A stretch of 64,000 bases of DNA. It comes from Chloroflexota bacterium (GTDB taxonomy: Bacteria; Chloroflexota; Limnocylindria; Limnocylindrales; CSP1-4). The notes below the pieces were generated by a model. That model was not told the origin of the DNA. It did no database searches and saw only the letters and a list, made by a program, of their open reading frames with translations. The stretch lies in the NCBI GenBank assembly GCA_017853275.1, contig JAFMJV010000007.1, forward strand, positions 1,694-65,693, written 5' to 3'. The position numbers were made by a program, and so were the translations under genes. How positions within the stretch are numbered: position 1 is the stretch's first letter; the number at the start of each line of letters is the position of its first letter. Shown piece after piece: positions 19,683 through 44,090 of the stretch.

Positions 19683-19831
19683 CCCGCCCTCCGTGGTGCC
19701 TCCCGTCGCGGTCACGAGCCGCGCCGTGCGCATCATGCACCGTGCCGCGCGTGGGCGTCCGCGCGCCGCCGAAGGTCCCGGTACGACCGGACCATGGCCG
19801 GACCCCCGGATGGGTGGCTAGGGTGGAGCCC

Positions 19832-22901: not shown

Positions 22902-23083
22902 GCCCGCCCCTCCCCGGCGGGGCGACGCTGCTCGGGTCCCCTTCCGGTCCCGGGACAGGACTGTGGTCATCCCCCCGGGGGACCCTCGCCCGGCGCACGG
23001 CTGGTACTTCCGACCCGTAGCCCCTCCCGACCTCCGCCTGCTTTCCTACCGGCATGGTCAGGCAGCGGATCCCGGAGGTCGAG

Positions 23084-24730: not shown

Positions 24731-25444
24731 TCAGCCGCCGGTGGCCGGGCGCTCGGGAGCGGGCCGTGCGCCCTGCGGCGCGATCCGGCGGCTCATGACG
24801 ATCGGGATCTGCCGGCGCAGGCTGCCGGGGCCGGTGTGGACGCGGCGCGTCCAGCCTTCCGGGAGCGCGTACCACGCGATCGCCACGAGCTCGAGCGCCA
24901 CGTAGAGCCGGTTGAGCTCGGGGTGGCCGCTGACCGGCGTCACGGCCGGGACGCCCACCGTGAGCCGGACGCCATGCCGGCGTGCCTCGCGCTCGATCCG
25001 GCGGGCGTGGAAGGGCGAGGAGACCACGAGGTAGTCGGCAGGGCCGGATCGCCCCGCGAGCGAGCGGATCGCCTCGCGCGTGGTGCCGGCGGGCCGGAGC
25101 GGGGCGACGGCATCCCGGGGGATCCCGCGCCCGGCCAGGTGGTCGGCCATGACATCCGCCTCGTCCACCCGGTCCGCCACGCCACCCGCGACGAGGATCA
25201 CCGGCGCGAGACCCGCACGCCAGAGGCGCGCGCCATGGTCCAGGCGCGCGGCGAGCTCCGGGGAGGGACCGGAGGCATCCGCGGTCGCGCCGAGGATGAC
25301 GATCGCGTCCGCCGGCCCGTGCGACCCGGTGGCCGCCCGGCGGGTGGAGCGCCGCAGGGCGAGGAGCTCACCGCCCACGATCGCTCCCGCCACCCCCGCC
25401 CCGGCGACGAGGACCCGGACCGCGGTCCCGATCGGGCCGCTCAC
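24731..25444 (-). CDS. YdcF/DUF218 (SanA/ElyC-like) family protein
   Basis: GTG start overlapping the upstream stop (GTGA); N-terminal hydrophobic helix; DAIVILGA..RLDHG..AGG..EADVM..T..VVSSPFHARR. Confidence 0.82.
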   Translation of the reverse strand: MSGPIGTAVRVLVAGAGVAGAIVGGELLALRRSTRRAATGSHGPADAIVILGATADASGPSPELAARLDHGARLWRAGLAPVILVAGGVADRVDEADVMADHLAGRGIPRDAVAPLRPAGTTREAIRSLAGRSGPADYLVVSSPFHARRIEREARRHGVRLTVGVPAVTPVSGHPELNRLYVALELVAIAWYALPEGWTRRVHTGPGSLRRQIPIVMSRRIAPQGARPAPERPATGG

Positions 25445-26256
25445 GCGATGCTCCGCGTCCGCTGCGCATCGAGCCCCCACGCCGCGAGGATCGTCCGCGT
25501 GGCGATCCCCATCGCGTAGCCCACGGCGAGCGTGTCGTGCTCGTCCGTGGCGAGGAAGGCCACAAGGAGGACGGCGCCATCCGCCTCGATCCGGGCGACA
25601 TCGTGGGCGAGCCCGGGGAGCGACCCCGTCTTGTGCGCGATCGTCACGTCCGCCTCCGTGGCCCCGAGCGGGATCCGGCTGTTCCGGACGGAGTGGCGGA
25701 GCGCACGGGCAGTGAGCGGATGACGCGCGGAGTCCGCCGCCGCGTCCAGGAGCCGGAGGGCGTCCCGGGCCGTGGTCCGGCCGGCGAGCGGTGCGGACGG
25801 GTCCTCCGGCGGGACGACGTGGGCATCGGTGGCCGTGCAGCCCGTCGCCGCGATCGCGTCGCAGACCGCGCCGATCCCCGTCATCCGGAGGAGGGCGGCG
25901 GCGGCGGGGCCATCGCTCAGCCCCACGGTGAGGCCGATGAGGTCGGCAAGGCCGAGACCGATCTCCGGGTCGAGCGCGTGGAGGAGGCTCGGGAGCGACG
26001 CCTCGGCGAGAAGATCCCGGATGGCGATCCGCCATCCGGCGGCGATCCGGCCCTCCGCACCGGCCCGCTCCGCGGCGATCGCGAGGGGGATCTTGAGGAG
26101 GCTCGCGGCGGGAACGGGCGCATCCGCCCGGACCTCCGCCTCCCAGCGTTCCGTCCCGCGCTCCAGCCGAGCTGCTGCTGCGCGCCCCGGCAGGTCCGCC
26201 CAGGCACGGAGGGCGGCCTCGGCCCGCGTGCGGGGATCCTCCGACATCCGGGTCAC
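25441..26256 (-). CDS. Class A beta-lactamase-fold serine hydrolase (atypical)
   Basis: SxxK (AASLLK), SDG in place of SDN, TTARD, HKTGSL, HDVA; GTGA overlap with the ABC gene (alternative ATG 26247); no signal peptide. Confidence 0.82.
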   Translation of the reverse strand: MTRMSEDPRTRAEAALRAWADLPGRAAAARLERGTERWEAEVRADAPVPAASLLKIPLAIAAERAGAEGRIAAGWRIAIRDLLAEASLPSLLHALDPEIGLGLADLIGLTVGLSDGPAAAALLRMTGIGAVCDAIAATGCTATDAHVVPPEDPSAPLAGRTTARDALRLLDAAADSARHPLTARALRHSVRNSRIPLGATEADVTIAHKTGSLPGLAHDVARIEADGAVLLVAFLATDEHDTLAVGYAMGIATRTILAAWGLDAQRTRSIA

Positions 26257-28331
26257 GCCTCCTGGCGCGCGGCGAGCCGGGCGAAGGCGCCACCGGCCCG
26301 GGCGAGGAGATCGGGTGCTCCTTCCTCCACGATCCGGCCGCCGGCGACCACGAGGACGCGGTCCGCCCCCTGGATCGTGGAGAGGCGATGGGCGATGACG
26401 ATCCGAGTCGCCTCGGACCACAGGATCGTGCGCATGACGACCGACTGGGTGATCGTGTCCAGCGCGCTCGTCGCCTCGTCGAAGAGCAGGATCCGCGGAC
26501 GCCCCACGAGCGCGGACGCGATCATCAGGCGCTGCCGCTGGCCGCCGGAGAGGAGCCGCCCATGCTCCCCGATCGGCGCCTCGAGCCCGCCGTCCATCGC
26601 CCGCACGTCATCGGCGAGGCCGGCCTCCGCGAGGAGATCCCAGCAGGCGCTTGCGGGGAGGGGCCGGCCGGCGCAGAGCGCGTCGCGCACCGTATCGCCG
26701 AGCGGGAGGGAGGCCTGGAGGACCGTCCCCATCCGCCCCCGGACGGCCACCGGGTCGAGGCCGGCCAGGTCGTGACCGTCGTAGGCGACGCTCCCCGTCC
26801 AGGGGGTCTCGAACCCGAGGAGGAGCCGGAGGAGGGTGGACTTGCCACCGCCGGACGGCCCCACGACCGCGACGAGCTCGCCGGGACGGACGTCGAGGGA
26901 GAAGCGGTCGAGGAGCGGCGGCGCATCCCGCCGGTAGCCGAAGGTGACGTCCGTGAGCGTGATCCGCCCGGCGAGCGGTCCCGGATCGCGGCCACCCTCC
27001 GGCCGCTCCGGGGCCGTCTCCACGATCGGGGTCACCCGTCCCAGGGTGGGACCGAGCTCGGCGAGCGCGGAGACCCGGGAGCCGAGCGTGGTGGCGGCCA
27101 CGGCCACCTGGGCGACCGCCGCGTAGAGGGCGAGGAAGGTCCCTGCGGCCCCGGCGCTCCCCGGCTCGAGGCCCGGCGTGGGGAGGATGATCAGGCTGGC
27201 GATGACGACCGTGATGATCAGGAGGGGCGCCGCCACCTCGAGCGGCTCGCTCACGCCGATCGAGGCGAGCCGCCCGGCCAGCGCATTCCCGGAGGCGGCC
27301 TGGTCCGCTGCCCAGCGGCGGAAGGCGTGCGCCTCCGCGCCGGCCACTCGCCACGTCACGACCGAGCGGAGGAGCCCGGTCAGGGTGGCATCCGTGCGGG
27401 AGCGGGCGTCCAGGAGCTCCCGGAGCCGGGCGCGGCCGGTCCGCTGCGCGGCGACCGAGACGGCGAGGATCGCCGCGGTCGCCAGGGCCACCACGATCCC
27501 GGCCACCACGTCGGCGACCAGGACCCAGACGAGGCTGGAGAGCCCGAACGTCGCGGTGACGATCGTCGCGATCGTGCCGTCATCCACCTGGAGACGCGCC
27601 GCGGAGACGGCGTTCGCGCGCTGGGTGATCTCCCCCTCCGTCCGGGACCGGAAGAAGGGGACGGGGAGGCGGAGGAGGTGGGCGAGGATCGCCGGCCCGA
27701 GGACCGCATCGGAGAGGTCGCGGATGCGCACGACGAAGAGGCCCTGGCCGAGCGCGAGCAGGGCGGCCCCGAGCGAGCCAAGCGCGACGAGGACGAGGAC
27801 GAGGAGGACGAGCCCGGGATCGCCCGCGGGGACGGCGATGCCGAAGATCGCCGCGGTGCCGGCGGGCAGGAGCAGCCCGACGATCCCGCCCGCGACCCCC
27901 GCCGCGAGGAGGCGGCCGATCTCGCCCGCGTGACGGCGCACGGACCAGCGGAGGAGCCCGCGCGCGCGTCCGTCCGCCGGCAGCCGCTCCGCCCAGGCGA
28001 TCGCCGCCGCGTCCACCCGGGCGGCGGTCCGGGCGTCGAGCGGGGCGGTCCGCCGCGTGCCGCCCTGGACGATGAGCCCGGGCCGTCCGGGCCGGGGCAG
28101 GACGGCGGCCGGGCCGTCCGGGGTCGTGACGGTGAGCGGGCCGACGATCGATCGCTCCCACCCCGGCGAGAGCTGGATCGGGCGCCCGGGAAGCCCGTCC
28201 GGAGCCGCCAGCGCGCGGGCATCCGCGGCGGGATCGCCGCGGCGGGGCGTCACGATCGGCGGGGCGCTCCCATCCGCGGCCGTCACGAGCGCGGCCACCG
28301 CGTCCTCCACGGGATCGGGCCGCTCAGCCAT
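26253..28331 (-). CDS. NHLM bacteriocin system ABC transporter, ATP-binding/permease (TIGR03797-like)
   Basis: N-terminal IQLSPGW....GPL...AAVLP region typical of NHLM ABC2; HLLRLPVPFFR; GPSGGGKS, LSGGQRQR, LLFDEAT, AHRLST. Confidence 0.85.
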   Translation of the reverse strand: MAERPDPVEDAVAALVTAADGSAPPIVTPRRGDPAADARALAAPDGLPGRPIQLSPGWERSIVGPLTVTTPDGPAAVLPRPGRPGLIVQGGTRRTAPLDARTAARVDAAAIAWAERLPADGRARGLLRWSVRRHAGEIGRLLAAGVAGGIVGLLLPAGTAAIFGIAVPAGDPGLVLLVLVLVALGSLGAALLALGQGLFVVRIRDLSDAVLGPAILAHLLRLPVPFFRSRTEGEITQRANAVSAARLQVDDGTIATIVTATFGLSSLVWVLVADVVAGIVVALATAAILAVSVAAQRTGRARLRELLDARSRTDATLTGLLRSVVTWRVAGAEAHAFRRWAADQAASGNALAGRLASIGVSEPLEVAAPLLIITVVIASLIILPTPGLEPGSAGAAGTFLALYAAVAQVAVAATTLGSRVSALAELGPTLGRVTPIVETAPERPEGGRDPGPLAGRITLTDVTFGYRRDAPPLLDRFSLDVRPGELVAVVGPSGGGKSTLLRLLLGFETPWTGSVAYDGHDLAGLDPVAVRGRMGTVLQASLPLGDTVRDALCAGRPLPASACWDLLAEAGLADDVRAMDGGLEAPIGEHGRLLSGGQRQRLMIASALVGRPRILLFDEATSALDTITQSVVMRTILWSEATRIVIAHRLSTIQGADRVLVVAGGRIVEEGAPDLLARAGGAFARLAARQEA

Positions 28332-30060
28332 GGATCAGCTCCCGGAAGCGCCCCACGTCGCGCAGCTCCGCGTACGTGCCCGACTGGACGATCCGCCCCC
28401 GGTCGATGACGACGATCCGGTCCGCGTCCCGGATCGTGGAGAGGCGGTGCGCGACGACGAGGGTCGTGGCACCCCGCGCGCGGAGCCGCTCCTCCACCTC
28501 CGCCTCCACGATCGGGTCGAGGGCGCTCGTCGCCTCGTCCAGGACGAGGATCCGCGGCTCCCGGACGATCGCGCGCGCGATCGCGAGGCGCTGGAGCTCG
28601 CCCCCGCTGAAGCCGCCCGCGCCCGGGCCCACCGGCTCGTCCAGGCCGAGCGGACGCGCGTCCACGGCCGCCTCGATCCGGGCATCGCGGAGGGCCCGGA
28701 CGATCGCCGACTCCGGGATCGTCTCGTCGAAGAGGGTGAGGTTCTCGCGGATCGTGCCGGGGACCAGGAGCGGCGCCTGCGGGACATAGGCGAGCGCGGC
28801 GACCCGGTCGGCACGCGGCATCGCGAGCCGGGGGACCCCGTCGATCGTCACGGTCCCGGCCCACGGGCGGAGCTCACCGATCGCGATGCGGATGATCGTG
28901 GACTTGCCGCTCCCGCTCGCCCCCACGAGCGCGACCCGCGCCCCCTCGGGCACCTCGAGCTCCAGCCCGTCCAGGAGCGGGGGCCCATCCGGCGCGTAGC
29001 CGAAGCGGAGGCCGCGGAGGGCGAGCGCCGCCGGGCGCCACGGGATGGCAGGGTCCGGCGCCACCTGGACGACCGCGGGACCCTCCGCCTCCGGATCGAG
29101 GGGGAGCGCGCGGATCTCGGCGGTCATCGCGTCCGCGCTGCGCACGCTCGCGAGCAGGACGCCGAGCCAGACGAGCTGGCCCGCCGGCACGAGCATCTGG
29201 ATGAGGAAGGTCTGCGCGCCCACGAGCCCGCCGAGGGTCAGCTCCCCTGCGAGGACGAGGAAGGAGCCGAGGCCGAGGATGAGGGTGAGCCCGGCGGCGA
29301 TGGTGACCGCCGGGACGATCGCGAGCCGCTGGCTGTCCGTGCCGAGCGCGGTGATCGCGGCGGCCCGGCGGTCGCGCACGCGTCCCCATCGGGCGAAGAC
29401 CCAGCCCTCCGCGGCCGTGGCCTTCACCGTCTCGATCGCGCGCACGATCCCGGTGAGCGTGGTCAGCTGGTCCACGCGCGCATCGTCCGCGGCGCGCTGC
29501 GCGGCCTCGCGCCCGCGGAGAAGCCGGACGGTGGTGGCCATGGAGAGCGCCACCACGGCGATGCCGGCGAGGGCGAGCCGCGCGTCCACGAGGAAGGCCG
29601 CCAGCGCGAAGACGGTGAGCCCGGTGACGTTGATCGCCAACGCGCGGGTGAGGAAGATCCCGGCCGAGACGGCGAGCGTCTGGGTGGCCGCCCCGCGCGC
29701 GGCGAGCCCGGACGCCCCCTCGCCGTCCACGACCGGGGCCGGCAGGCGGAGCACGTGCCAGGCCAGGCCCGCCGCGTCCGCGGTCGCCGTCCGGACCGCG
29801 TGCCGGGCGAGGAGGCGAAGCTGAAGCCAGGTCACGAGGAGCGCGATGACGATGAGGAGGGCGAGGAGGAGGAGGAGCGGCTGCTGCCAACCGTCCTCGC
29901 CGGCCACGAGGACACGGTCCACGTAGACCCGGACCACGATCGGCAGGGTGAGCCCGGGGATGAGGGCGAGGAGCGTCGTCGCGAGGAGCGCGGCAAGGAC
30001 GGCCGGCTCACGCGGGACGCGGGGGAGGCGCGCCCGCGCCACGCCCGCGGGGGCCGTCAT
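28324..30060 (-). CDS. NHLM bacteriocin system ABC transporter (TIGR03796-like) lacking the C39 peptidase domain
   Basis: 578 aa beginning directly at the membrane domain (start MTAPAG, ATGA overlap); WHVLRLP, IETVKA, F.RW, GASGSGKS, FSGGELQR, LDEAT, AHRLST. Confidence 0.82.
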   Translation of the reverse strand: MTAPAGVARARLPRVPREPAVLAALLATTLLALIPGLTLPIVVRVYVDRVLVAGEDGWQQPLLLLLALLIVIALLVTWLQLRLLARHAVRTATADAAGLAWHVLRLPAPVVDGEGASGLAARGAATQTLAVSAGIFLTRALAINVTGLTVFALAAFLVDARLALAGIAVVALSMATTVRLLRGREAAQRAADDARVDQLTTLTGIVRAIETVKATAAEGWVFARWGRVRDRRAAAITALGTDSQRLAIVPAVTIAAGLTLILGLGSFLVLAGELTLGGLVGAQTFLIQMLVPAGQLVWLGVLLASVRSADAMTAEIRALPLDPEAEGPAVVQVAPDPAIPWRPAALALRGLRFGYAPDGPPLLDGLELEVPEGARVALVGASGSGKSTIIRIAIGELRPWAGTVTIDGVPRLAMPRADRVAALAYVPQAPLLVPGTIRENLTLFDETIPESAIVRALRDARIEAAVDARPLGLDEPVGPGAGGFSGGELQRLAIARAIVREPRILVLDEATSALDPIVEAEVEERLRARGATTLVVAHRLSTIRDADRIVVIDRGRIVQSGTYAELRDVGRFRELIHG

Positions 30061-30872
30061 GGCGTGATCAGGTCGATCGGGCGCTCCCCCGCCACCACGA
30101 CCCGCAGGGCGCCCACGGCCCCCGCACGCACCGTGATCGCAGGCCCCGCTCCGGAGCTCCAGGCGTACCCGCTCGGCGTCGCCGGGTCCCGGACGAGGCC
30201 CACGGTCACCTCCACGACCGGGCCGGCGGCGAGGAGGTCCTCCACGAGCGCGCGGTTCCCGGCCACGAGGAGGAGGGCACGCTCCTCGTCGACGGGGAGC
30301 GGCGCCACGGAGAGGACGGTGCCCCGCAGCGACCCCCACTGGGCGGATGGGACGCCGCCGAGATCGATGAGCGCGCTCATCCCCGGCTCCACGGCCCGGC
30401 TGTCGCGCGCCGGGACGAAGCCGGCGTAGATGAGCGGCACCGTCGTCGGCTCGATCGTGGCGATCCCCGTCCCGGCGGTCGTGTACGCACCTCCGCGGAC
30501 GAGGACGGACGCGACCCGGCCATCGACCGGGCTGGCGATCGTCCGGAGGACGCCTGCGTCATCGCGGATCGTCGCGATCTCCTCCCCGGCCCGGACCTCC
30601 GAGCCCGGCTCCACGCCGATCGTCTCCACGAGACCCGCGAACTCCACCCCGACCTCGCGGAAGCCCCCGTCCGGCAGGACCATCCCGTGGCCGCCCACGG
30701 TCACGGGGACCGACCCGAAGAGGACCCAGCCGAGCGCCGCCGCCGCCGCGAGGAGGAGCCCCGCGAGGACGATCCAGGTGGGCCGGTCCGCCACCACGAG
30801 GCGCTCTCCCACGAGAGCGGAGGGATCCGGCGCCGGGACCTCCTCGGTGGGCGGGGTCGGTGGCTGGGTCAT
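30057..30872 (-). CDS. NHLM bacteriocin system secretion protein (HlyD/membrane-fusion family, TIGR03794-like, short form)
   Basis: One TM helix, GSVPVTVGGHG, lipoyl-like halves, GSLRGTVLSVAPLP, DPATPSGYAWSSGAGP, ERPIDLITP. Confidence 0.85.
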   Translation of the reverse strand: MTQPPTPPTEEVPAPDPSALVGERLVVADRPTWIVLAGLLLAAAAALGWVLFGSVPVTVGGHGMVLPDGGFREVGVEFAGLVETIGVEPGSEVRAGEEIATIRDDAGVLRTIASPVDGRVASVLVRGGAYTTAGTGIATIEPTTVPLIYAGFVPARDSRAVEPGMSALIDLGGVPSAQWGSLRGTVLSVAPLPVDEERALLLVAGNRALVEDLLAAGPVVEVTVGLVRDPATPSGYAWSSGAGPAITVRAGAVGALRVVVAGERPIDLITP

Positions 30873-30933
30873 CGCGCGATTGTAGGAGGGGGCGGGCGCC
30901 CGGACCTCGGCCGGGACCGCTACGCTCTCCTGC
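30873..30933. promoter_or_regulatory. Back-to-back leaderless promoters
   Basis: Minus strand TACAAT (30884-30879)-N6-ATG; plus strand TACGCT (30921-30926)-N7-GTG; no SD on either side. Confidence 0.65.
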
Positions 30934-32124: not shown

Positions 32125-33014
32125 GCACGGAAGGACGGAACCCGCGCACGGAGCGGATCGACGAGCTGCCCACCCTGGAGGTCGTCCGGCTCCTCGCCGC
32201 GGAGGATGCGCTCGTGCCGCCGGTGGTGGCCGCGGCCGCGCCCGCGATCGCCCGCGCGGTGGACGGGATCGTGGCGCGGATGCGCGCCGGCGGACGGCTG
32301 ATCTACGCGGGGGCGGGGACGAGCGGACGACTCGCGATGCTCGATGCCGTGGAGTGCGTCCCCACCTACGGCGTCCCGCCCGGGCTCGTGGTCGCGCTCG
32401 TGGCGGGCGGCGCGCCGGCGCTCTCCGGCTCCGTGGAGGACGCCGAGGATTCCGCGGAGGGTGGCGCTGCGGCCGTGCGGGCGGTGGGGACCGGGCCGCA
32501 GGACACCCTCGTGGGGATCGCCGCGAGCGGCCGGACCCCCTTCGTCCTTGGCGCGCTCGCCGCAGCGAAGGAGGCGGGTGCGCTCACCGTCGCGATCTCC
32601 TGCAACGACCCTGCGCCGATCCTCGCGGCCGCGGAGATCGCGATCGGCCTCCCCACCGGCCCGGAGCCGGTGGCGGGCTCGACGCGGATGAAGGCGGGGA
32701 CCGCGCAGAAGCTCACCCTGAACGCGATCAGCACCGCCACCTTCATCCGGCTCGGGAAGGTCCACGGGAACCGGATGATCGAGGTCGCGGTGACGAACGA
32801 GAAGCTGCGCGGGCGGGCGACCGGGCTCGTGGCGGAGATCCTCGGCGTGGAGAACGGGGAGGCCGCGCGCCTCCTCGCCCTCGCGAACGACCACGTCCCC
32901 ACCGCGGTCCTCATCGGGGCGCGCGGCCTGGCGCCGGATGCCGCGCGGGCACTGCTCGCGGCGCACGGCGGCGTCCTCCGCTCCGCCCTGGACGCGAGCG
33001 CACCCGCGCGCTGA
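32121..33014 (+). CDS. murQ: N-acetylmuramic acid 6-phosphate etherase
   Basis: TEGRNPRT, GAGTSGRL..LDAVEC.PTYG, EDAED, GIAASGRTP, GSTRMKAGTAQK, NEKL; GTGA overlap. Confidence 0.96.
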   Translation: MSTEGRNPRTERIDELPTLEVVRLLAAEDALVPPVVAAAAPAIARAVDGIVARMRAGGRLIYAGAGTSGRLAMLDAVECVPTYGVPPGLVVALVAGGAPALSGSVEDAEDSAEGGAAAVRAVGTGPQDTLVGIAASGRTPFVLGALAAAKEAGALTVAISCNDPAPILAAAEIAIGLPTGPEPVAGSTRMKAGTAQKLTLNAISTATFIRLGKVHGNRMIEVAVTNEKLRGRATGLVAEILGVENGEAARLLALANDHVPTAVLIGARGLAPDAARALLAAHGGVLRSALDASAPAR

Positions 33015-33067
33015 AGGGGTCGGATGGACCTTCCCGGACCCGCCCGGGATGTCATCATGCGGACCGG

Positions 33068-33092
33068 CGGGGGCGGCACGGTGTCGCCCCCG
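33068..33092 (+). promoter_or_regulatory. Hairpin in the leader of the SBP gene
   Basis: CGGGGGCGGCA-CGG-TGTCGCCCCCG (one G-U pair). Confidence 0.4.
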
Positions 33093-33115
33093 GATCATTC
33101 TCGGAAGGGAGTCAG

Positions 33116-34351
33116 ATGACCGCTCGATCGACGATCGTGCGAGCCGGGCTTGCCGGCGCGCTCGCCGCCGCTCTCGTCCTGCCCGCCGGCGCCGCGCTCG
33201 GCCAGGGCACGACGATCTCGTTCCTCACCCCGCCCTGGGGCGCCCCGCCGGATCAGGCCCTCCTCGACGCCTTCCAGGCGGAGAGCGGGATCACGGTGGA
33301 TATCCAGTCGGTCCAGATGACCGACCTCTTCAGCCGCGTCCAGGTCGCGGCCGGCTCCGGCACGCCCGCCGCGGACGTCATCTTCCTCACGGAGGAGGCG
33401 CCCTCGAACATCGTGGCGACCGGGAACATGATGCCGCTCAACGACCTGATGGCGGGCGTGGACCTCTCGGACTTCACGAAGACCGACTTCTGGACGATGG
33501 ACGGCCAGCTCTACGGCGTGCCGGTCTACAACCAGCTCGTGATGATGGACTTCAACGAGAAGCGGCTCGCGCAGGCCGGCTTCACGGCGCGCCCGGAGAC
33601 CTGGGCGGAGCTGAAGGACCAGGCCCTCGCGATCAAGGCGCAGGGGATCGACGAGTACCCGATCGCGATGGGCGCGATCGACTGGTCGTGGTACCTCATC
33701 GCGCTCTCCATGGGCGACCCGATGTTCGACGCGGACCTCAACCCGGTCTTCGCGGACGAGGGCTCCAAGGGGCGTGAGGCGATGGCGACCCTCCTCTCGT
33801 TCTTCTCCGAGGGGCTGATCACGCCGGACATGCTCTCCGGCGCCACCACCCAGCACACCGCCTTCTGGAGCGGCAGCGGCACCTTCCACCAGGGCTGGCA
33901 GGGCTCGGTCGTCGTGGGCAACGGCGCCGATTCCGCCCAGGCCCCGGACGTCCGCTACCTCCGCCTCCCGGAGGCCGGCTTCACGTGGAGCTTCCCCGCG
34001 GCGATCGGCATCGGCGCCGGCAGCCAGAACGCGGAGGCCGCGAAGACCTTCATCGAGTGGTACACCTCCCCGGAGAACCAGCTCGCGATCTACAACGCGT
34101 TCGGGCTCTACCCGTCGCGCACCTCGGTCGCCGAGCAGCTCGCCGCCGAGGACAAGATCGCCGGCAACGACGTGATCGTGGAGCAGTCGGCGCTCGTCAA
34201 CGAGCTCCCGCGCTACGCGCTCTGGTGGGGCCCCTTCACGACCGCCGTCTCCACGGCGATCCTGGAGGCCGCCCAGACCGGCACGCCGGCGGACGAGGTG
34301 ATCGACGCGCTCGCGCAGGAGTGGAACGACCTCCGCGCCGAGTACGAGTGA
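33116..34351 (+). CDS. Carbohydrate ABC transporter substrate-binding protein (CUT1)
   Basis: Signal peptide ending ALG-QG; DGQLYGVP, PETWAEL; followed by two CUT1 permeases. Confidence 0.9.
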   Translation: MTARSTIVRAGLAGALAAALVLPAGAALGQGTTISFLTPPWGAPPDQALLDAFQAESGITVDIQSVQMTDLFSRVQVAAGSGTPAADVIFLTEEAPSNIVATGNMMPLNDLMAGVDLSDFTKTDFWTMDGQLYGVPVYNQLVMMDFNEKRLAQAGFTARPETWAELKDQALAIKAQGIDEYPIAMGAIDWSWYLIALSMGDPMFDADLNPVFADEGSKGREAMATLLSFFSEGLITPDMLSGATTQHTAFWSGSGTFHQGWQGSVVVGNGADSAQAPDVRYLRLPEAGFTWSFPAAIGIGAGSQNAEAAKTFIEWYTSPENQLAIYNAFGLYPSRTSVAEQLAAEDKIAGNDVIVEQSALVNELPRYALWWGPFTTAVSTAILEAAQTGTPADEVIDALAQEWNDLRAEYE

Positions 34352-34380
34352 TCGACCGTCCCTGACGGAACGACGATGAT

Positions 34381-34421
34381 GACGGCCCCCGTGTCACGAG
34401 CGATCGTGCGCGGGGGCCGTC
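34381..34421 (+). promoter_or_regulatory. Intercistronic stem-loop after the SBP gene (mRNA stabiliser or attenuator)
   Basis: GACGGCCCCCG...CACGA-GCGA-TCGTG...CGGGGGCCGTC. Confidence 0.6.
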
Positions 34422-34443
34422 GCGCGTCCCGGGGGCGCGGCGG

Positions 34444-35355
34444 ATGAGCAGGATCCTCACCCGCGACCGCCTCTTCATCCTCGCCTTCCTCGTCCCGATC
34501 GTGGTGATCGTGGCGATCCTCGTCTACCTCCCCGCGGCGGACACGCTCCGGGCGAGCCTGACGAACCAGAACCTGCGCCTCGCGAACAAGCCGATCGAGT
34601 GGGTCGGCCTGGAGAACTACGGGCGGCTCCTCGCGGACGAGGAGTTCCTCGAGGTGACGATGCGGAGCATCCTCCTCGTGGCGATCACCCTCCCGCTCGA
34701 GCTCCTCATCGCGTTCGGCGCGGCGCTCCTTCTCAACGAGCACTTCCCCGGCCGCGGCGCGGTCCGGACGCTCGTCCTCCTCCCCTGGCTCGTCCCCCCG
34801 GTCGTCAACGGCTTCCTCTGGGGCTGGATCCTCAACGGGGAGTTCGGGGCGCTGAACGGTCTCCTGTGGCAGCTGGGGATCATCGGCGACTACCAGTACT
34901 GGCTCGCGGAGCCCTCCACCCAGATGCTGTGGGTCGCCGTGGTCCAGACCTGGACGCGCTTCGCCTTCCCCACGATCATCCTCCTCGCCGGCCTCCAGGG
35001 GATCCCGTGGGACCTCTATGACGCGGCCAAGGTGGACGGTGCGGGCGCCTGGCGCCGCCTCTGGAGCCTGACGATCCCGATGCTCCGCCCCTCGATCGCG
35101 ATCGCGCTCGTGGTGGAGGCGATCGCCTCCTTCCAGATCTTCGATGTCGTCTGGACGCTCACCTCCGGGGCGTCGGCGGGCGGCGCGATCAACCCCTTCA
35201 CGAAGACCCTGATGATCTGGAACTACGAGCTCGTCTTCCGCGACCTGCGGATCGGGCTCGGCGCGGCGCTCTCGTGGATCGTGCTCGCGATGTCGCTCGT
35301 CATCGGGCTCGTCTTCATCGCCCGGATCTACAACCAGGGCGTGCGGGACAAGTGA
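34444..35355 (+). CDS. Carbohydrate ABC transporter permease
   Basis: WVGLENY, LAGLQGIP.DLYDAAKVDGA EAA loop. Confidence 0.93.
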   Translation: MSRILTRDRLFILAFLVPIVVIVAILVYLPAADTLRASLTNQNLRLANKPIEWVGLENYGRLLADEEFLEVTMRSILLVAITLPLELLIAFGAALLLNEHFPGRGAVRTLVLLPWLVPPVVNGFLWGWILNGEFGALNGLLWQLGIIGDYQYWLAEPSTQMLWVAVVQTWTRFAFPTIILLAGLQGIPWDLYDAAKVDGAGAWRRLWSLTIPMLRPSIAIALVVEAIASFQIFDVVWTLTSGASAGGAINPFTKTLMIWNYELVFRDLRIGLGAALSWIVLAMSLVIGLVFIARIYNQGVRDK

Positions 35356-35356
35356 G

Positions 35357-36235
35357 ATGACCCTCCGCCGGCGGCGCCTCCGCCTCCTCCTCATCTACCT
35401 CGCCTGCGCCGTCCTCCTCTTCTGGGCGCTCGCACCGATCTACTGGGTCGTGGTCTCGAGCATCTCCACGCGGACCGAGCTCTACGCTGCGCCGCAGAAG
35501 ATCTGGTTCCCGTCGGCGCCCACGCTGGAGAACTACCTCGCGCTCTTCGGCGGCGGGGACGGCTACCGAGGCGCGAACGCCACGCCCACCGCGAACCTCA
35601 TGCTCACCGGGCTCCGCAACAGCATCCTCACGAGCGTGAGCGCGGCGGCCCTCGTCACGCTCCTGTGCACGGGGGCGGGATACGTCTTCGCGCGGATGCG
35701 CTTCCGGGGGAAGGGGATCTCCTTCCTCTTCATCATGCTCCTCATGCCGCTCCCGCTCTGGGTCGCGCTCATCGCCCTCTTCTTCATCATGACCCGGGCC
35801 GGCCTCGTGGATACGATCCCCGGCCTCGTCATCCTCTTCACCGTCTTCCAGGTCCCGCTCGCGGTCTGGCTGATGGCGACCTTCGTCCGCGACATCCCGA
35901 TCGACGTGGAGGAGGCGGGGCTGATGGACGGCGCCACCCGCTGGCAGATCCTCCGCCACCTCGTGGCGCCGCTCGCGAAACCCGGGATGGTCGCGGTCTT
36001 CCTCGTCACCCTTCTCACGACCTGGAACAGCTTCATGATCCCGCTCATGTTCACGCGGACGGACGCCGCCCAGACGATGACCGTCGTCCTCACCCTCTTC
36101 ATCGGCCAGTACGAGGTGGCCTGGGAGGCGATGTCCGCGGCGGCGGTCGTGACGATGCTCCCGCCCTTCATCCTCGCCCTCTTCTTCCAGCGCTACCTCG
36201 TCCGCGGGCTGACGCTCGGCGCCGTCAAGGGATGA
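35357..36235 (+). CDS. Carbohydrate ABC transporter permease
   Basis: PTLENY, IPIDVEEAGLMDGA, FQRYLVRGLTLGAVKG. Confidence 0.93.
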   Translation: MTLRRRRLRLLLIYLACAVLLFWALAPIYWVVVSSISTRTELYAAPQKIWFPSAPTLENYLALFGGGDGYRGANATPTANLMLTGLRNSILTSVSAAALVTLLCTGAGYVFARMRFRGKGISFLFIMLLMPLPLWVALIALFFIMTRAGLVDTIPGLVILFTVFQVPLAVWLMATFVRDIPIDVEEAGLMDGATRWQILRHLVAPLAKPGMVAVFLVTLLTTWNSFMIPLMFTRTDAAQTMTVVLTLFIGQYEVAWEAMSAAAVVTMLPPFILALFFQRYLVRGLTLGAVKG

Positions 36236-37482
36236 GCGCGGCGTCCGCGGCGGGCGACCCGGCAGAGGGGACGATCGCCCGGGACCGGCTCCCGGCGGGC
36301 GTCGGCCGCGCGATCGATGCGCGGGTGCGCGCCGCCATCCCCGTGGTCGCCCCGGCCGTCTCGGTCGCGGTCTTCCGCGATGGGGATCTCGTCCTCGATG
36401 CCGCGTGGGGCCATGCGGACCCGGAGACGGGGACGCCGGCCACGCCGGAGCTCCGCTTCGACCTCGCCTCGCTCACGAAGCTCCTCACCGCCACGCTCGT
36501 CCTGCGCGCCGTGAGCGCGGGGCGGGCAGGGCTGGACGATCCGCTCGCGCAGGCCGTCCCGGAGCTGATCGGTGCCGGGCCCCGCGGCGTGGACGGAGGC
36601 CAGGACCCCTTCGACCTCGTCATCGCACCCGCGCCCGCCACGCACGCCGGCCTGCGCGTGGACCCCGCGCTCCCCACCGTCCGCCAGGCGCTCGCCCACA
36701 TCTCCGGGCTCGCCCCGTGGCGCGCACTCTTCCTCGCCGCCGGTCCTGTCCCGCCCGCGCCCCCGGCACCGGACCCGGTGGGATGTGCGGAGCGCCGCGC
36801 CGCGGTCCTTGCCGCGATCGGCGCGGCGCCCTTCGTGGACCGGCCGGGCGCGGCGATCCGCTACAGCGACCTCGGCTTCATCCTCCTCGGCGAGCTCGTC
36901 CGGCGGCGGCTCACGGAGCGCCCGGACGCGGAGCTCGATGCGCTCCTCGCCGCGCACCTCGCGGGTCCGCTCGGTCTGGCGAGCGTGGGGTACCGGCCGC
37001 TCGCCGCGGGCGTCGCGCGGACTCGGATCGCCCCCACGAGCGTGGATCTCCGCTGGCGCGGGCGGCGCGCCTGGGGCGAGGTGGAGGACGAGAACGCGGC
37101 AGGGCTCGGCGGGGTGAGCGGGCACGCGGGGGCCTTCGCGACCGCACGGGATGTGGCGGCCTTCGGGGAGGCCTGGCGGAGCGGGGATCCGCGCCTCGGG
37201 ATCGACCCGGGCCTGCGCGCGGATGCGGTCCGCGTGGTCGCCACGGAGCCCGGGGAGGCGCGAGGGCTCGGCTGGCAGCTGCGGCCCGCGGACGGCTCCG
37301 GGATCCTCGGCCCGCTCGGCGCGGACGCCTACGGCCACACCGGCTTCACGGGGACCGCGCTCGCGGTGGACCCGGGGCGGCGGCTCGTGGTGGCGATCCT
37401 CACGAACCGCGTCCACGCGGGCCGCTTCACCCCCGGGGTGGACGCGCTCCAGCACGACCTCCACGCCCTCCTCGCCGGATGA
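36232..37482 (+). CDS. AmpC-fold serine hydrolase, AmiE/YbbE-like (candidate MurNAc-L-Ala amidase)
   Basis: FDLASLTK (SxxK), YSDLGF, GEVEDENA, GHAGAF, GHTGFTGT, LTNRVH; inside the anmK-murQ operon. Confidence 0.8.
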   Translation: MSAASAAGDPAEGTIARDRLPAGVGRAIDARVRAAIPVVAPAVSVAVFRDGDLVLDAAWGHADPETGTPATPELRFDLASLTKLLTATLVLRAVSAGRAGLDDPLAQAVPELIGAGPRGVDGGQDPFDLVIAPAPATHAGLRVDPALPTVRQALAHISGLAPWRALFLAAGPVPPAPPAPDPVGCAERRAAVLAAIGAAPFVDRPGAAIRYSDLGFILLGELVRRRLTERPDAELDALLAAHLAGPLGLASVGYRPLAAGVARTRIAPTSVDLRWRGRRAWGEVEDENAAGLGGVSGHAGAFATARDVAAFGEAWRSGDPRLGIDPGLRADAVRVVATEPGEARGLGWQLRPADGSGILGPLGADAYGHTGFTGTALAVDPGRRLVVAILTNRVHAGRFTPGVDALQHDLHALLAG

Positions 37483-38729
37483 GGCACCCGGGACCCGCCG
37501 CGCGGGCGGGGATCGCGCTCCTCCTCCTTGTGCTCGCCGGGGCCGGCGTGCCGGGCGGGGTCGCCGGCGCCGGCGAGGTGACCCTCCGCCTCCTCTGGCC
37601 CGCGTGGACCGCCCAGCCGGGGAACGACCTCCTCGCCCAGTTCCGGCGCGAGACGGGGATCGCGACCGAGCTCCGCCCCCTCGACCACCAGGGGATCGCG
37701 CGCATCGAGGCCGAGCCGGATCCCCCCGTGACGCTGGAGGCGGATGTCATCCGGCTCGCCTTCCGGCGCCCCCCGACCTGGGTCGCGGACGGGCGGATCC
37801 TCCTCCGGCCGCTGGACGATCTCGTGGCGGGCACGGACCTCTCCGACCTCGTCCGGGTGGAGACGTGGCGGACGGAGGCCGGGCTCCTTGCGCTCCCCGT
37901 GGACGACCAGCCGATCCTCCTCGAGGTGAACGGCCGGCGGCTGGCGGCAGCCGGGGTGACGGAGGACCCGAAGACCTGGGCGGAGCTCGTGGAGACCGCC
38001 CGTGCGCTCCGCGACCGCGGGGTGGACCCCCACCCGATCGCGATCGCGCCGGGCGAGTGGAGCTGGGAGCTGATCGCCCGCTCGATGGGCGACCCCTTCA
38101 TCGGCCCGGAGGGCGAGCCGCTCTTTGCGGCCGCAGGCTCGCCTGCGCGGCAGGCGCTGGCGACCCTCCTCGCGATGGCGGACGAGGAGCTGATCGACCC
38201 GGCGATCGTGGCCCGGGAGCGGAGCCCGCACGCGACCTTCTGGGACGGCGGCGGGACGATCCACATGGGCTGGCTCGGCTCGCTCGCCGTGGCGAACGGC
38301 TCCTATTCCCGGCAAGCCCCGGACGTCCGGCCCCTCCCGATCCCGGAGACCGGGGCCACCTTCAGCGTCCCGGGCGCGATCGGGATCACCGCCGAGAGCA
38401 CCGTTCCCGCGGAGGCGTGGCGCTTCCTCACGTGGGTCGTGAGCGAGGTGCCGCAGCGGGCGCTCTGGGAGCGGACCGGGCTCTTCCCGGCGCGCAGCTC
38501 GGTGGCCGCGGCGCTCGGCGCGGAGGGCGCGATCGAGGGCTGGGCGGCGATCGCCCCGCAGCTCCCCCACGTCCAGGCGCGCCCGATCCTCCTCCCCTGG
38601 TGGGATGCCTTCGAGACGGAGGCGGACGCGCTGATCGTGGCCGCGGCGCAGGACGGGACGCCCGCGGACGCGGTGGTGGACGCGCTCGGCCTCCGCTGGG
38701 CCGAGCTCCGCGCCACCGCGGGAGGCTGA
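37479..38729 (+). CDS. Second carbohydrate SBP, diverged paralog of 33116..34351
   Basis: ATGA overlap; colinear motifs DLSD, TWAEL, WSW.LIA.SMGDP, QAPDVR, GTPAD. Confidence 0.85.
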   Translation: MRHPGPAARAGIALLLLVLAGAGVPGGVAGAGEVTLRLLWPAWTAQPGNDLLAQFRRETGIATELRPLDHQGIARIEAEPDPPVTLEADVIRLAFRRPPTWVADGRILLRPLDDLVAGTDLSDLVRVETWRTEAGLLALPVDDQPILLEVNGRRLAAAGVTEDPKTWAELVETARALRDRGVDPHPIAIAPGEWSWELIARSMGDPFIGPEGEPLFAAAGSPARQALATLLAMADEELIDPAIVARERSPHATFWDGGGTIHMGWLGSLAVANGSYSRQAPDVRPLPIPETGATFSVPGAIGITAESTVPAEAWRFLTWVVSEVPQRALWERTGLFPARSSVAAALGAEGAIEGWAAIAPQLPHVQARPILLPWWDAFETEADALIVAAAQDGTPADAVVDALGLRWAELRATAGG

Positions 38730-39843: not shown

Positions 39844-39854
39844 CGTCCTCCCCC

Positions 39855-42729: not shown

Positions 42730-42763
42730 GACGCGGTGCGTCTCGCGATGGTGCTACGTCCGA

Positions 42764-43876: not shown

Positions 43877-44090
43877 GCTGGTCTCCTCAGTTGATCGGCG
43901 GCTCGGTCGCGGGGCACTCGCTCCCGGATGGCCAGCCGTCAGGATAGGAGGCTCGGGGCGGGATGTCATCCCTCTCTTTCCGTTCCGTTAACGGGGTGTC
44001 GCAGAGCCCGGGATGGCAGGCAGGCGGGTCGCGCGTAGAATCGCCGGGACGGTCCGCGTCGCGGCCCGCGCCGCCCTGGGGAGCCCACGG

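What the first reader, a model, noticed from the sequence alone, without database searches (positions are those of the whole stretch)
24731..38729. Peptidase-less NHLM-type exporter back-to-back with a peptidoglycan salvage operon: candidate export-and-scavenge system
Seen in sequence: two operons diverge from a 61-bp spacer. The left arm is adaptor, ABC, ABC, beta-lactamase-fold hydrolase and YdcF, all joined by overlapping start/stop codons. The right arm is anmK, murQ, SBP, two permeases, an AmiE-like hydrolase and a second SBP. Established: the left trio matches the NHLM bacteriocin export set (TIGR03794/03796/03797), which normally lies beside RiPP precursors and maturases; AnmK and MurQ catabolise anhydro-MurNAc; YdcF/ElyC/SanA and PBP-fold proteins are envelope-related. 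No precursor or maturase is present here. Inference: a bacteriocin exporter has been repurposed for cell-wall metabolism, either secreting a wall-attacking protein whose products are imported by the divergent operon, or moving wall-turnover products. I know of no description of this pairing.
Basis: partly seen in the sequence, partly recalled or inferred. Interest (0 to 1): 0.82.

Follow-up and report, generated by a model that had tools for sequence, protein, structure and literature searches.

The report
Peptidase-less exporter module beside wall-recycling operon
The genes are really there, but the exporter arm is a self-contained five-gene cell-envelope module found in many Chloroflexota and Actinomycetota, and it sits next to an ordinary cell-wall sugar recycling operon only in this genome.

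Summary
OBSERVATION: confirmed. All 12 genes, the start/stop overlaps and the 61-bp spacer are as described. Contigs from two independent runs bridge the junction.

INTERPRETATION: partly supported.
- The pairing is not conserved. None of 26 loci carrying the module has anmK, murQ or the importer within reach. None of 6 same-genus anmK operons has the exporter. In the one relative holding both, they are not adjacent.
- The right arm is an ordinary MurNAc/anhMurNAc recycling operon, inherited within the genus.
- The genome makes its own peptidoglycan (5 transpeptidase and 3 SEDS hits).

WHAT THE LEFT ARM IS: a conserved, sporadically distributed module.
- A short HlyD-type adaptor.
- Two NHLP-like ABC half-transporters, from a clade whose 42 best database relatives all lack the C39 peptidase.
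- A leaderless class-A-beta-lactamase-fold protein, closest to the DD-peptidase PBP-A.
- A DUF218 protein that keeps the Thr-His-Arg cluster of the newly described Upr C55-PP-glycan release factors.
- The module recurs beside murT-gatD (11 of 26 loci) and beside a methyltransferase (11 of 26).

No NHLP or Nif11 leader, C39, YcaO or LanC was found in the genome.

Best reading: an accessory module acting on undecaprenyl-linked peptidoglycan precursors. The cargo is unresolved. It is a new variant of a known kind, of moderate interest.

The parts
24731..25444 (-). DUF218 / Upr-like protein (237 aa) with an N-terminal hydrophobic anchor. It is the last gene of the module.
   Evidence: PF02698 scores 74.8 bits against a cut-off of 27.6. 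T122, H146 and R149 are invariant in 25 aligned homologues, with the T+24 H+3 R spacing reported for UprB and UprC. It is the only DUF218 hit in the genome.
25441..26256 (-). Leaderless class-A-beta-lactamase-fold serine hydrolase ('bla2', 271 aa), PBP-A/BlaB-like.
   Evidence: PF13354 scores 85.9 bits, while the class A beta-lactamase model NF033103 scores 31.4 against a cut-off of 200. S52-x-x-K55, S114-D115 and H208-K-T-G211 are invariant in 35 sequences. The AF2 model has pLDDT 91.7. Best PDB matches are 4EWF, LRA-5, PBP-A and BlaB.
26253..28331 (-). ABC half-transporter 2 (692 aa) with a roughly 120-aa N-terminal beta-rich domain.
   Evidence: TIGR03797 scores 529.3 bits against a cut-off of 709.4, matching profile positions 30-685. 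For the N-domain model, the top Foldseek rows are C39 or C39-like domains of HlyB, ComA, PCAT1 and LahT, but only weakly (E 0.08-0.5). It has no Pfam hit.
28324..30060 (-). ABC half-transporter 1 (578 aa) without a C39 peptidase domain.
   Evidence: TIGR03796 scores 457.1 bits against a cut-off of 853.3, and the match starts at profile position 143. The 42 best of 120 listed database relatives lack PF03412, and the other 78 carry it.
30057..30872 (-). Short HlyD-type adaptor (271 aa).
   Evidence: TIGR03794 scores 149.2 bits against a cut-off of 156.2, and the best stretch 97-271 matches profile positions 241-417 of 421. PF13437 scores 54.1 bits.
30873..30933 (.). 61-bp divergent spacer.
   Evidence: TACAAT lies 6 nt before the adaptor ATG (minus strand) and TACGCT lies 7 nt before the anmK GTG. 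The consensus promoter scan found no site. Contigs of runs X1 and X2 bridge it.
30934..32124 (+). anmK, anhydro-N-acetylmuramic acid kinase.
   Evidence: NF007148 scores 435 bits against a cut-off of 387, and PF03702 scores 347.5.
32121..33014 (+). murQ, MurNAc-6-phosphate etherase.
   Evidence: NF003915 scores 373.1 bits against a cut-off of 168, and TIGR00274 scores 321.9 against 302.
33116..34351 (+). Solute-binding protein 1 of a CUT1-type sugar ABC importer.
   Evidence: PF13416 scores 102.9 bits and PF01547 scores 89.5. Orthologues stand in the same position in genus relatives.
34444..36235 (+). Two importer permeases (34444-35355 and 35357-36235).
   Evidence: PF00528 scores 47.5 and 64.4 bits. 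They are 71-80% identical to the permeases of genus relatives.
36232..37482 (+).
   Evidence: PF00144 scores 178.6 bits. It is conserved at the end of the operon in relatives at 46-54% identity. Orthology to B. subtilis AmiE was not tested.
37479..38729 (+). Solute-binding protein 2, a paralogue of SBP1.
   Evidence: PF01547 scores 56.4 bits. It is 42% identical to SBP1.

Best explanation
The region holds two unrelated transcription units that happen to be neighbours in this genome.

RIGHT ARM. This is a vertically inherited recycling operon for MurNAc and anhydro-MurNAc. A binding-protein-dependent importer brings the substrate in, a PF00144 hydrolase follows, AnmK phosphorylates and MurQ cleaves the ether.

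LEFT ARM. This is a self-contained, horizontally spread five-gene envelope module. It descends from the NHLP/PCAT-type peptide exporters but has lost the C39 peptidase. It is permanently coupled to two enzymes whose characterised relatives act on peptidoglycan precursors.

Proposed mechanism (inferred, not shown):
- The DUF218/Upr-like enzyme hydrolyses the bond between undecaprenyl diphosphate and MurNAc in lipid II or in nascent glycan strands.
- The PBP-A-like serine enzyme trims or cleaves D-Ala-D-Ala stem peptides.
- The heterodimeric ABC exporter with its short adaptor moves either that leaderless enzyme or the released glycopeptide across the single membrane.

The module is accessory, not housekeeping.
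For: SHOWN
1. The module is conserved. In 26 loci of other species (bla2 at 38% identity or more) DUF218 is adjacent in 26 of 26. At least one exporter gene is seen in 21 of 26, and all five genes in 14 of 26. Two of the remaining loci begin at bla2.
2. The module-type bla2 sequences form one clade (99/100 support, stem length 1.14). Rows titled Chloroflexota and Actinomycetota are interleaved in it.
3. The exporter clade lacks C39. The 42 best of 120 listed relatives of ABC1 have no PF03412, and the next 78 (42% identity or less) all have it.
4. bla2 is PBP-A/BlaB-like and keeps SxxK, SD and KTG. PBP-A is a DD-carboxy/endopeptidase specific for amidated muropeptides (PMC11189452, abstract).
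5. DUF218 proteins are C55-PP-glycan hydrolases with a Thr-His-Arg-Glu cluster (preprint 10.64898/2026.10.14.759067). T122, H146 and R149 are invariant here with the same spacing.
6. There is a recurring wall context elsewhere: murT in 11 of 26 loci, gatD in 10 of 26 and Methyltransf_24 in 11 of 26.
7. The module is accessory. ABC2 was found in 1 of 24 same-genus genomes and in 2 of 400 phylum genomes. DUF218 was found in 3 of 41 genus genomes.
8. The right arm is conserved without the module. anmK was found in 17 of 40 genus genomes. The order anmK-murQ-SBP-permease-permease-GH3-PF00144 stands in L095, L096 and L099.
9. The pairing is absent in 0 of 26 module loci and 0 of 6 genus anmK regions.
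Against: - No activity, substrate, topology or cargo has been shown.
- The whole wider bla2-like clade, including members with no exporter nearby (Streptomyces, Hyphomonadaceae, Pelosinus), also lacks room for a signal peptide. Being leaderless is therefore not specific to the module and argues against bla2 being the cargo.
- L036 and L037 have bla2 and DUF218 with 10 kb on each side and no exporter.
- This genome has no MurT, so the link to amidation does not apply here.
- The charge distribution around the DUF218 anchor is ambiguous. One locus (L027) fuses DUF218 to a methyltransferase, which would place the domain in the cytoplasm, unlike the E. coli Upr enzymes.
- The resemblance of the ABC2 N-domain to C39-like domains is weak (E 0.08 or higher).
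- The organism titles of the MAG records may be wrong.
- The module loci are related to one another, so the counts are not independent.
Confidence: 0.5

Rival explanations
1. The two arms are one system: the exporter secretes a wall-attacking protein or wall-turnover products, and the divergent operon re-imports and catabolises them.
For: The two arms are only 61 bp apart and divergent, so they could share regulation. Both arms have a peptidoglycan theme. One distant bla2-like gene (29% identity) lies 2.2 kb from an anmK homologue in L085. The juxtaposition is present in contigs from two runs.
Against: The pairing is absent in 0 of 26 module loci and in 0 of 6 genus anmK regions. It is also not seen in G012, which has both units. 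The recycling operon exists without the module in the genus, and the module exists without the operon in two phyla. The genome makes its own wall.
Confidence: 0.1
2. The exporter works like a type I secretion system. It secretes the leaderless PBP-fold enzyme itself, uncleaved, to act outside the membrane together with the membrane-anchored Upr-like enzyme on nascent peptidoglycan.
For: bla2 has no signal peptide in any of 35 aligned members, yet PBP-A acts in the periplasm (PMC11189452, section titles). The E. coli Upr enzymes are periplasmic. bla2 is fixed next to the exporter. No peptide cargo gene is conserved. The top fold matches of the ABC2 N-domain are C39-like domains, including that of HlyB, which exports uncleaved proteins.
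Against: Relatives of bla2 that have no exporter are equally leaderless. L036 and L037 lack the exporter. No secretion signal was identified. The fold matches are weak.
Confidence: 0.2
3. It is an orphan RiPP or bacteriocin exporter. Its peptide cargo is encoded elsewhere or is too small or divergent to detect, and bla2 and DUF218 serve as immunity or maturation factors.
For: The best family matches are the NHLP export trio. The nearest C39-bearing relatives are named NHLP/NHLM exporters.
Against: The own genome (93.8% complete) gave no hit for the NHLP leader, Nif11 leader, C39, YcaO or LanC-like families. The NHLP and LanC control searches rang in no control genome, so those two blanks are weak. 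No small ORF is conserved next to the adaptor in the 15 loci examined or in the all-against-all ORF clustering. All three proteins score below the family cut-offs.
Confidence: 0.1
4. It is a resistance or tolerance module against antibiotics that bind lipid II or target the wall. In this model the pump removes the drug, the DD-peptidase removes the terminal D-Ala, and the Upr-like enzyme frees sequestered undecaprenyl carrier.
For: The distribution is sporadic and looks transfer-like. SanA (a DUF218 protein) affects vancomycin resistance (abstract of PMC13251401 in the listing). Pairings of DD-carboxypeptidases with lipid-II head-group enzymes are discussed for the van clusters in PMC12419801 (passages).
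Against: No sensor or regulator gene is conserved in the module. There is no similarity to known resistance pumps beyond the general ABC exporter fold. The idea rests on context alone.
Confidence: 0.1

Closest known systems
NHLP/Nif11 bacteriocin export trio (TIGR03794 HlyD-like, TIGR03796 ABC with C39 peptidase, TIGR03797 ABC); Haft et al. 2010, PMC2887384
   Same: The three-gene architecture and order are the same. These are the best-scoring families for all three proteins. ABC2 keeps the family's N-terminal domain (profile positions 30-685 matched).
   Different: All three proteins score below the curated cut-offs. ABC1 has no C39 domain, as in its 42 closest relatives. The adaptor is about 150 residues shorter than the profile. 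No NHLP or Nif11 precursors or maturases were found. The trio is fixed to two cell-wall-type enzymes instead.
HlyB/HlyD-type type I secretion (ABC with a non-catalytic C39-like domain and uncleaved cargo)
   Same: It also has an ABC exporter plus an HlyD-family adaptor with no leader cleavage. The top fold match of the ABC2 N-domain model is the HlyB/D complex 7SGR.
   Different: The fold match is weak (E 0.08). This transporter is a heterodimer of two different halves. The hosts are probably monoderm, with no TolC partner expected (recalled, not tested). No RTX-type cargo is present.
Upr-like (formerly DUF218) C55-PP-polysaccharide release factors UprA/SanA, UprB/ElyC and UprC/YgjQ of E. coli (preprint 10.64898/2026.10.14.759067)
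   Same: It has the Pfam DUF218 domain above the cut-off. Thr, His and Arg are invariant with the T+24 H+3 R spacing. It has an N-terminal membrane anchor.
   Different: The ElyC NCBIfam model scores only 19.9 bits against a cut-off of 205. The clade among the paper's four could not be determined, because the extended data and supplements were not readable. The side of the membrane is uncertain. It is operon-linked to an ABC exporter, a linkage that none of the papers listed by search, and none of the sections and passages I read, mentions.
PBP-A (Tll2115) of Thermosynechococcus elongatus, BlaB of Streptomyces cacaoi, and 4EWF of Sphaerobacter thermophilus: class-A-beta-lactamase-like proteins that are not true beta-lactamases
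   Same: The fold is the same (Foldseek E 8e-16 to 5e-13, TM 0.70-0.78). The profile matches at E 2e-32, 1e-20 and 2e-18. SxxK, SDx and KTG are present.
   Different: Identity is only 21-30%. The family has its own invariant R194-x-P196-L197 motif. It has no signal peptide. Activity is unknown.
MurNAc/anhMurNAc recycling operons (E. coli AnmK-MurQ; B. subtilis murQ-murR-murP-amiE-nagZ), from recall
   Same: AnmK and MurQ score above the equivalog cut-offs. In genus relatives the operon also holds a GH3 (NagZ-like) gene and the PF00144 hydrolase.
   Different: Uptake is by a binding-protein-dependent ABC importer rather than a PTS. In this genome the GH3 gene is missing from the operon and a second SBP has been added. 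No regulator gene is present in the operon.

Membership tests
NHLP bacteriocin export system (TIGR03794/03796/03797) | Each of the three proteins scores above the curated equivalog cut-off. | tested here: not met
   149.2 vs 156.2, 457.1 vs 853.3 and 529.3 vs 709.4 bits.
NHLP bacteriocin export system (TIGR03794/03796/03797) | One ABC subunit carries an N-terminal C39 double-glycine peptidase. | tested here: not met
   The ABC1 match starts at profile position 143, and the gene begins at an ATGA overlap with the adaptor. No PF03412 hit was found anywhere in the genome (the control rang in 7 of 14 genomes).
NHLP bacteriocin export system (TIGR03794/03796/03797) | The genome also holds NHLP or Nif11 leader peptides and their maturases. 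| tested here: not met
   No hits for TIGR03793, TIGR03798, PF02624 or PF05147 in the 93.8%-complete genome. The controls for TIGR03793 and PF05147 rang nowhere, so those two blanks are weak.
Upr-like / DUF218 C55-PP-glycan release factors | DUF218 domain with the conserved Thr-His-Arg-Glu cluster. | tested here: met
   PF02698 scores 74.8 bits against 27.6. T122, H146 and R149 are invariant with the spacing of UprB and UprC. The acidic candidates E153 (invariant) and the E/D in the 'ALELVA' helix are present, but which one is the catalytic Glu was not settled.
Upr-like / DUF218 C55-PP-glycan release factors | The catalytic domain lies outside the cytoplasmic membrane, and the enzyme hydrolyses lipid II or C55-PP-glycans. 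| tested here: inconclusive
   Positive charges lie on both sides of the anchor. One DUF218-methyltransferase fusion in L027 hints at a cytoplasmic location. Activity cannot be tested with these tools.
Class A beta-lactamase (true, hydrolytic) | Score above the NF033103 cut-off, an omega-loop Glu166 equivalent and a secretion signal. | tested here: not met
   31.4 bits against 200. No invariant acidic residue stands in the loop that aligns with L158 of PBP-A. Only about 50 residues precede the active-site Ser, which leaves no room for a signal peptide.
PBP-A-like class-A-fold DD-peptidases | Class A fold with SxxK, SxN-like and KTG motifs and without the deacylating Glu. | tested here: met
   AF2 pLDDT 91.7. 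PBP-A matches at Foldseek E 2e-13 and hmmsearch E 1e-20. The motifs are invariant. DD-peptidase activity itself was not tested.
AnmK / MurQ recycling enzymes | Score above the equivalog cut-offs. | tested here: met
   NF007148 scores 435 against 387. NF003915 scores 373 against 168, and TIGR00274 scores 321.9 against 302.
AmiE (B. subtilis MurNAc-L-Ala amidase, PF00144 fold) | Orthology to AmiE and amidase activity. | not tested
   Only PF00144 membership and the conserved position after the GH3 gene in relatives were seen. No AmiE sequence was available from any tool.

The most novel reading that the evidence does not exclude
The module is a dedicated muropeptide release-and-export pathway. 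At the cytoplasmic face the Upr-like enzyme cuts lipid I or lipid II off undecaprenyl diphosphate. The leaderless PBP-fold enzyme, and in many genomes a methyltransferase, then tailor the freed glycopeptide. The C39-less exporter expels it, either as a signal or to salvage carrier lipid. In this genome the divergent anmK-murQ importer operon would close the loop.
Probability: 0.12. Interest if true: 0.85.

Novelty: new variant of a known kind. Interest (0 to 1): 0.5.

Why it matters
DUF218 proteins have only just been identified as the enzymes that release glycan chains from the undecaprenyl carrier, and the authors note two clades of unknown pathway.

This module gives a ready-made genomic context for one such group. 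It fixes a Upr-like enzyme to a PBP-A-like DD-peptidase and to an ABC exporter that evolved from bacteriocin exporters by losing its peptidase.

Working out the cargo would do one of two things:
- reveal a signal-peptide-independent route for secreting a wall enzyme in single-membrane bacteria; or
- reveal a pathway that exports peptidoglycan-precursor fragments.

It also warns annotators that 'NHLP bacteriocin exporter' labels on these C39-less transporters probably mislead genome mining for RiPPs.

Tried and rejected
- PREDICTED COMPLEX of bla2 with the DUF218 soluble domain: no verdict (score 0.08, mark 0.32). It is not used as evidence either way.
- RNA EVIDENCE: no RNA holder was listed for the stretch, so co-expression of the arms could not be examined.
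- VIA-ALIGN LIBRARIES: these were not on the machine, so the weak Foldseek resemblance of the ABC2 N-domain to C39-like domains could not be re-scored.
- PFAM at E up to 10 on 15 N-domain sequences gave nothing useful.
- CONSENSUS PROMOTER/TERMINATOR SCAN of 30400-31400 found no site. The -10-like hexamers I report are my own reading.
- SEARCH FOR A CONSERVED SMALL PRECURSOR ORF: clustering of 2,882 ORFs of 35 aa or more from 26 loci plus the window, and inspection of up to 900 bp upstream of the adaptor in 15 loci. Only shadow ORFs and unrelated neighbours turned up. Very short or fast-evolving peptides would be missed.
- TEST OF 'SECRETION REPLACES SEC': I asked whether bla2 relatives without an exporter carry signal peptides. 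They do not, so the test counts against the secreted-enzyme model rather than for it.
- POSITIVE-INSIDE READING of the DUF218 anchor was ambiguous.
- LITERATURE: searches listed no paper describing this gene combination. That is a statement about those four searches only. PMC9146315 concerns a different protein, the metallo enzyme BlaB1, and was dropped.
- TREE: I used 38 rows, namely the window, L014-L045 where the match was at least 200 aa without a stop, and 7 hand-picked more distant loci. The other distant loci were left out.

Full report
WHAT IS THERE

The window has about 74% G+C, so I chose genes by third-position GC and by reading the frames.

On the minus strand lie five genes:
- a 271-aa HlyD-type adaptor (30057-30872);
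- a 578-aa ABC half-transporter (28324-30060);
- a 692-aa ABC half-transporter (26253-28331);
- a 271-aa PF13354 protein, which I call bla2 (25441-26256);
- a 237-aa DUF218 protein (24731-25444).

Each is joined to the next by a 4- or 8-nt overlap.

After a 61-bp spacer (30873-30933) the plus strand carries anmK, murQ, a solute-binding protein, two permeases, a PF00144 hydrolase and a second binding protein (30934-38729).

TIGR03794, TIGR03796 and TIGR03797 are the best hits, but all three proteins score below the curated cut-offs. ABC1 begins at profile position 143, so the C39 peptidase is absent.

The junction is real. Contigs assembled independently from two freshwater runs of two studies span the spacer. 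One of those runs may be the source sample.

IS THE PAIRING A SYSTEM?

I used an alignment of bla2 relatives to fetch 80 loci from species-representative genomes. I then mapped the window's 14 proteins onto them.

In the 26 loci with a close bla2 (38% identity or more; titled Chloroflexota and many Actinomycetota):
- DUF218 is adjacent in 26 of 26.
- ABC2 is seen in 20, ABC1 in 17 and the adaptor in 15.
- All five genes are seen in 14.
- At least one exporter gene is seen in 21.
- Of the five loci without an exporter hit, two start at bla2. One (L016) has only 3.1 kb upstream, with an adaptor-like ORF seen only in the clustering. Two (L036, L037) have 10 kb on each side and no exporter.

None of the 26 has a homologue of anmK, murQ, the binding proteins, the permeases or the PF00144 hydrolase.

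From the other side, anmK occurs in 17 of 40 same-genus genomes. In six of them I fetched about 8 kb on each side. None has the module, and three show the full operon anmK-murQ-SBP-permease-permease-GH3-PF00144.

G012 is the only one of 24 genus relatives with the exporter. It keeps the order ABC1-ABC2-bla2-DUF218, but its anmK is preceded by an SBP-like gene.

The adjacency is particular to this genome.

The genome also has five transpeptidase-domain hits and three SEDS hits. It therefore builds its own wall, and obligate scavenging is not implied.

WHAT THE LEFT ARM IS

It is a conserved unit, not a stray exporter.

- Among the 120 best database relatives of ABC1, the first 42 (42-59% identity over the full-length proteins) have no C39 domain. 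All of the remaining 78 (42% or less) have one, and many of those are named NHLP/NHLM exporters. The module's transporter is therefore a distinct C39-less offshoot of the NHLP family described by Haft et al. (PMC2887384, passages).
- The adaptor matches the profile only at its two ends, with the best stretch at 97-271 against 241-417 of 421. Reading the sequence, the two halves of the lipoyl-type domain follow each other directly. I take this to mean that the helical hairpin is missing. This is an inference.
- The N-terminal 120 residues of ABC2 fold into a small beta-rich domain (AF2 pLDDT above 90 over residues 50-110). Its top Foldseek rows are the C39 or C39-like domains of HlyB, ComA, PCAT1 and LahT, but only at E 0.08-0.5. 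Pfam sees nothing. The domain has no cysteine.

THE TWO ENZYMES

bla2:
- The model is confident (pLDDT 91.7).
- Its nearest solved relatives are a Sphaerobacter protein (4EWF), the weak metagenomic enzyme LRA-5, PBP-A of Thermosynechococcus and the regulator BlaB of Streptomyces cacaoi.
- SxxK, SD and HKTG are invariant in 35 sequences, as is a family-specific R-x-P-L motif.
- It scores 31 bits against a cut-off of 200 for true class A beta-lactamases.
- PBP-A is a DD-carboxy/endopeptidase with high specificity for muropeptides amidated on D-iso-glutamate (PMC11189452, abstract).

The DUF218 protein:
- It belongs to the family that a preprint of October 2026 renames Upr-like. The E. coli enzymes UprA (SanA), UprB (ElyC) and UprC hydrolyse the bond between undecaprenyl diphosphate and the first sugar of lipid II, of nascent glycan strands or of other lipid-linked glycans, using a Thr-His-Arg-Glu cluster (10.64898/2026.10.14.759067; abstract, section 9, part 1 of section 10 and passages).
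- In 25 aligned module proteins T122, H146 and R149 are invariant, with exactly the T+24, H+3 spacing given for UprB and UprC. Conserved acidic residues follow.

CONTEXT ELSEWHERE

Clustering all ORFs of the 26 loci and checking with Pfam showed two recurrent neighbours:
- murT (11 of 26) with gatD (10 of 26), the lipid II amidation pair;
- a Methyltransf_24 protein (11 of 26).

Two distant bla2-like genes without an exporter (L063, L081) also lie near murT-gatD.

This is independent support for a peptidoglycan-precursor role of the bla2-DUF218 pair. It fits PBP-A's preference for amidated stems. However, this genome itself has no MurT hit and no copy of the methyltransferase.

ACCESSORY AND MOBILE

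- ABC2 relatives were found in 1 of 24 genus genomes and in 2 of 400 phylum genomes. Few candidates were scored per genome in the latter search.
- DUF218 was found in 3 of 41 genus genomes, and the module's copy is the only one in this genome.
- In a maximum-likelihood tree of 38 bla2-type sequences the 26 module rows form one clade (99/100). Rows titled Chloroflexota and Actinomycetota are interleaved in it, for example L014/L015 beside L017/L018 at 100/97.
- This suggests transfer between phyla, provided the MAG titles are right.

HOW IT MIGHT WORK

Shown: the gene content, its conservation, the motifs and the folds. Everything about substrate and direction is inferred.

My preferred reading is that the module acts on undecaprenyl-linked peptidoglycan precursors. 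The Upr-like enzyme cuts the glycan off the carrier, and the PBP-A-like enzyme works on the D-Ala-D-Ala stem. The exporter carries either the enzyme or the product across the membrane. I cannot decide between those two cargoes.

For a secreted enzyme:
- The characterised relatives of both enzymes act outside the membrane.
- bla2 has no signal peptide.
- The transporter descends from polypeptide exporters and may keep a C39-like receptor domain.

Against a secreted enzyme:
- bla2-like proteins in Streptomyces, Hyphomonadaceae and Pelosinus, which have no such exporter, are just as leaderless. Only 42-50 residues lie between the start and the active-site serine.
- Two loci lack the exporter.
- One locus (L027) fuses DUF218 to the methyltransferase, whose SAM cofactor is cytoplasmic.

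A RiPP exporter with distant cargo is unlikely:
- The genome gave no hit for the NHLP or Nif11 leaders, C39, YcaO or LanC-like families. Two of those control searches were uninformative.
- No small ORF is conserved beside the adaptor.

A drug-tolerance role is possible but rests on context only.

THE RIGHT ARM

It is ordinary. AnmK and MurQ pass their equivalog cut-offs, and the operon is conserved in the genus. Two local peculiarities stand out:
- The GH3 (NagZ-like) gene that relatives carry between the second permease and the PF00144 hydrolase is missing.
- A second binding protein, 42% identical to the first, has been added.

The importer has no ATPase of its own. The ATPase at 39855-40970 belongs to a separate, convergent Pot-like importer operon.

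THE SPACER

TACAAT lies 6 nt upstream of the adaptor ATG on the minus strand. TACGCT lies 7 nt upstream of the anmK GTG. That would fit two back-to-back promoters giving leaderless mRNAs. However, the consensus scan found nothing and no RNA data exist, so this stays a remark.

VERDICT

- The proposed export-and-scavenge coupling is not supported.
- The idea of a bacteriocin-type exporter recruited to wall metabolism is supported by new, independent evidence.
- The module is a new variant of a known kind. My four literature searches listed no description of it.
- Interest is moderate. The cargo question is open and testable, and it connects directly to the newly defined Upr enzymes.

Noticed in passing
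window 23054-24670 (+): A 538-aa protein lies convergent to the module. It has an N-terminal hydrophobic segment, an HEVLHGLG (HExxH) motif, a Pro/Thr-rich linker and a C-terminal domain. It has no Pfam hit and is single-copy in the genome. It is possibly a secreted metalloprotease of an undescribed family.
   Followed up: partly
L027:4008-5591 (+): The DUF218 protein and the Methyltransf_24 protein are read as a single ORF in this Actinomycetota MAG, whereas they are separate, overlapping genes in its nearest relative L039. This is either a true fusion, which would put the DUF218 domain in the cytoplasm, or a frameshift error.
   Followed up: partly
L063 and L081 (about 2-4 kb from the bla2-like match); L085:6722-7816: Distant bla2-like genes without any exporter also lie near murT-gatD in two Actinomycetota loci. 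One lies 2.2 kb from an anmK homologue in a Methyloligellaceae MAG.
   Followed up: no
window 36235/36232 junction; L099:13386-15032: Genus relatives carry a GH3 (NagZ-like) gene between the second permease and the PF00144 hydrolase. In the window that gene is missing and a second SBP (37479-38729, 42% identical to SBP1) follows the hydrolase.
   Followed up: partly
window 19742-21892 (+): A 716-aa protein combines a calcineurin-like phosphoesterase domain with a CBM96 carbohydrate-binding module.
   Followed up: no
window 38767-43969 (-): A separate convergent operon holds SBP_bac_6, two permeases, an ATPase with a TOBE domain, and an FMN-dependent 2-hydroxyacid dehydrogenase. No link to the finding was seen.
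   Followed up: no
window 30851: One contig of run X7 carries a 6-nt insertion (two codons) in the N-terminal region of the adaptor gene. Contigs of X3 and X7 differ from the window at many sites, so related strains with the same exporter genes occur in several freshwater data sets.
   Followed up: no
G013:C8:103800-104948: The anmK homologue of this genus relative is read through 2 TGA codons. It may be a pseudogene or a sequencing error.
   Followed up: no
hits P0126-P0142: The C39-less ABC1 clade has two length classes: about 565-590 aa, as in the window, and about 623-649 aa at 42-48% identity. The second may be a second subfamily with a short N-terminal extension.
   Followed up: no
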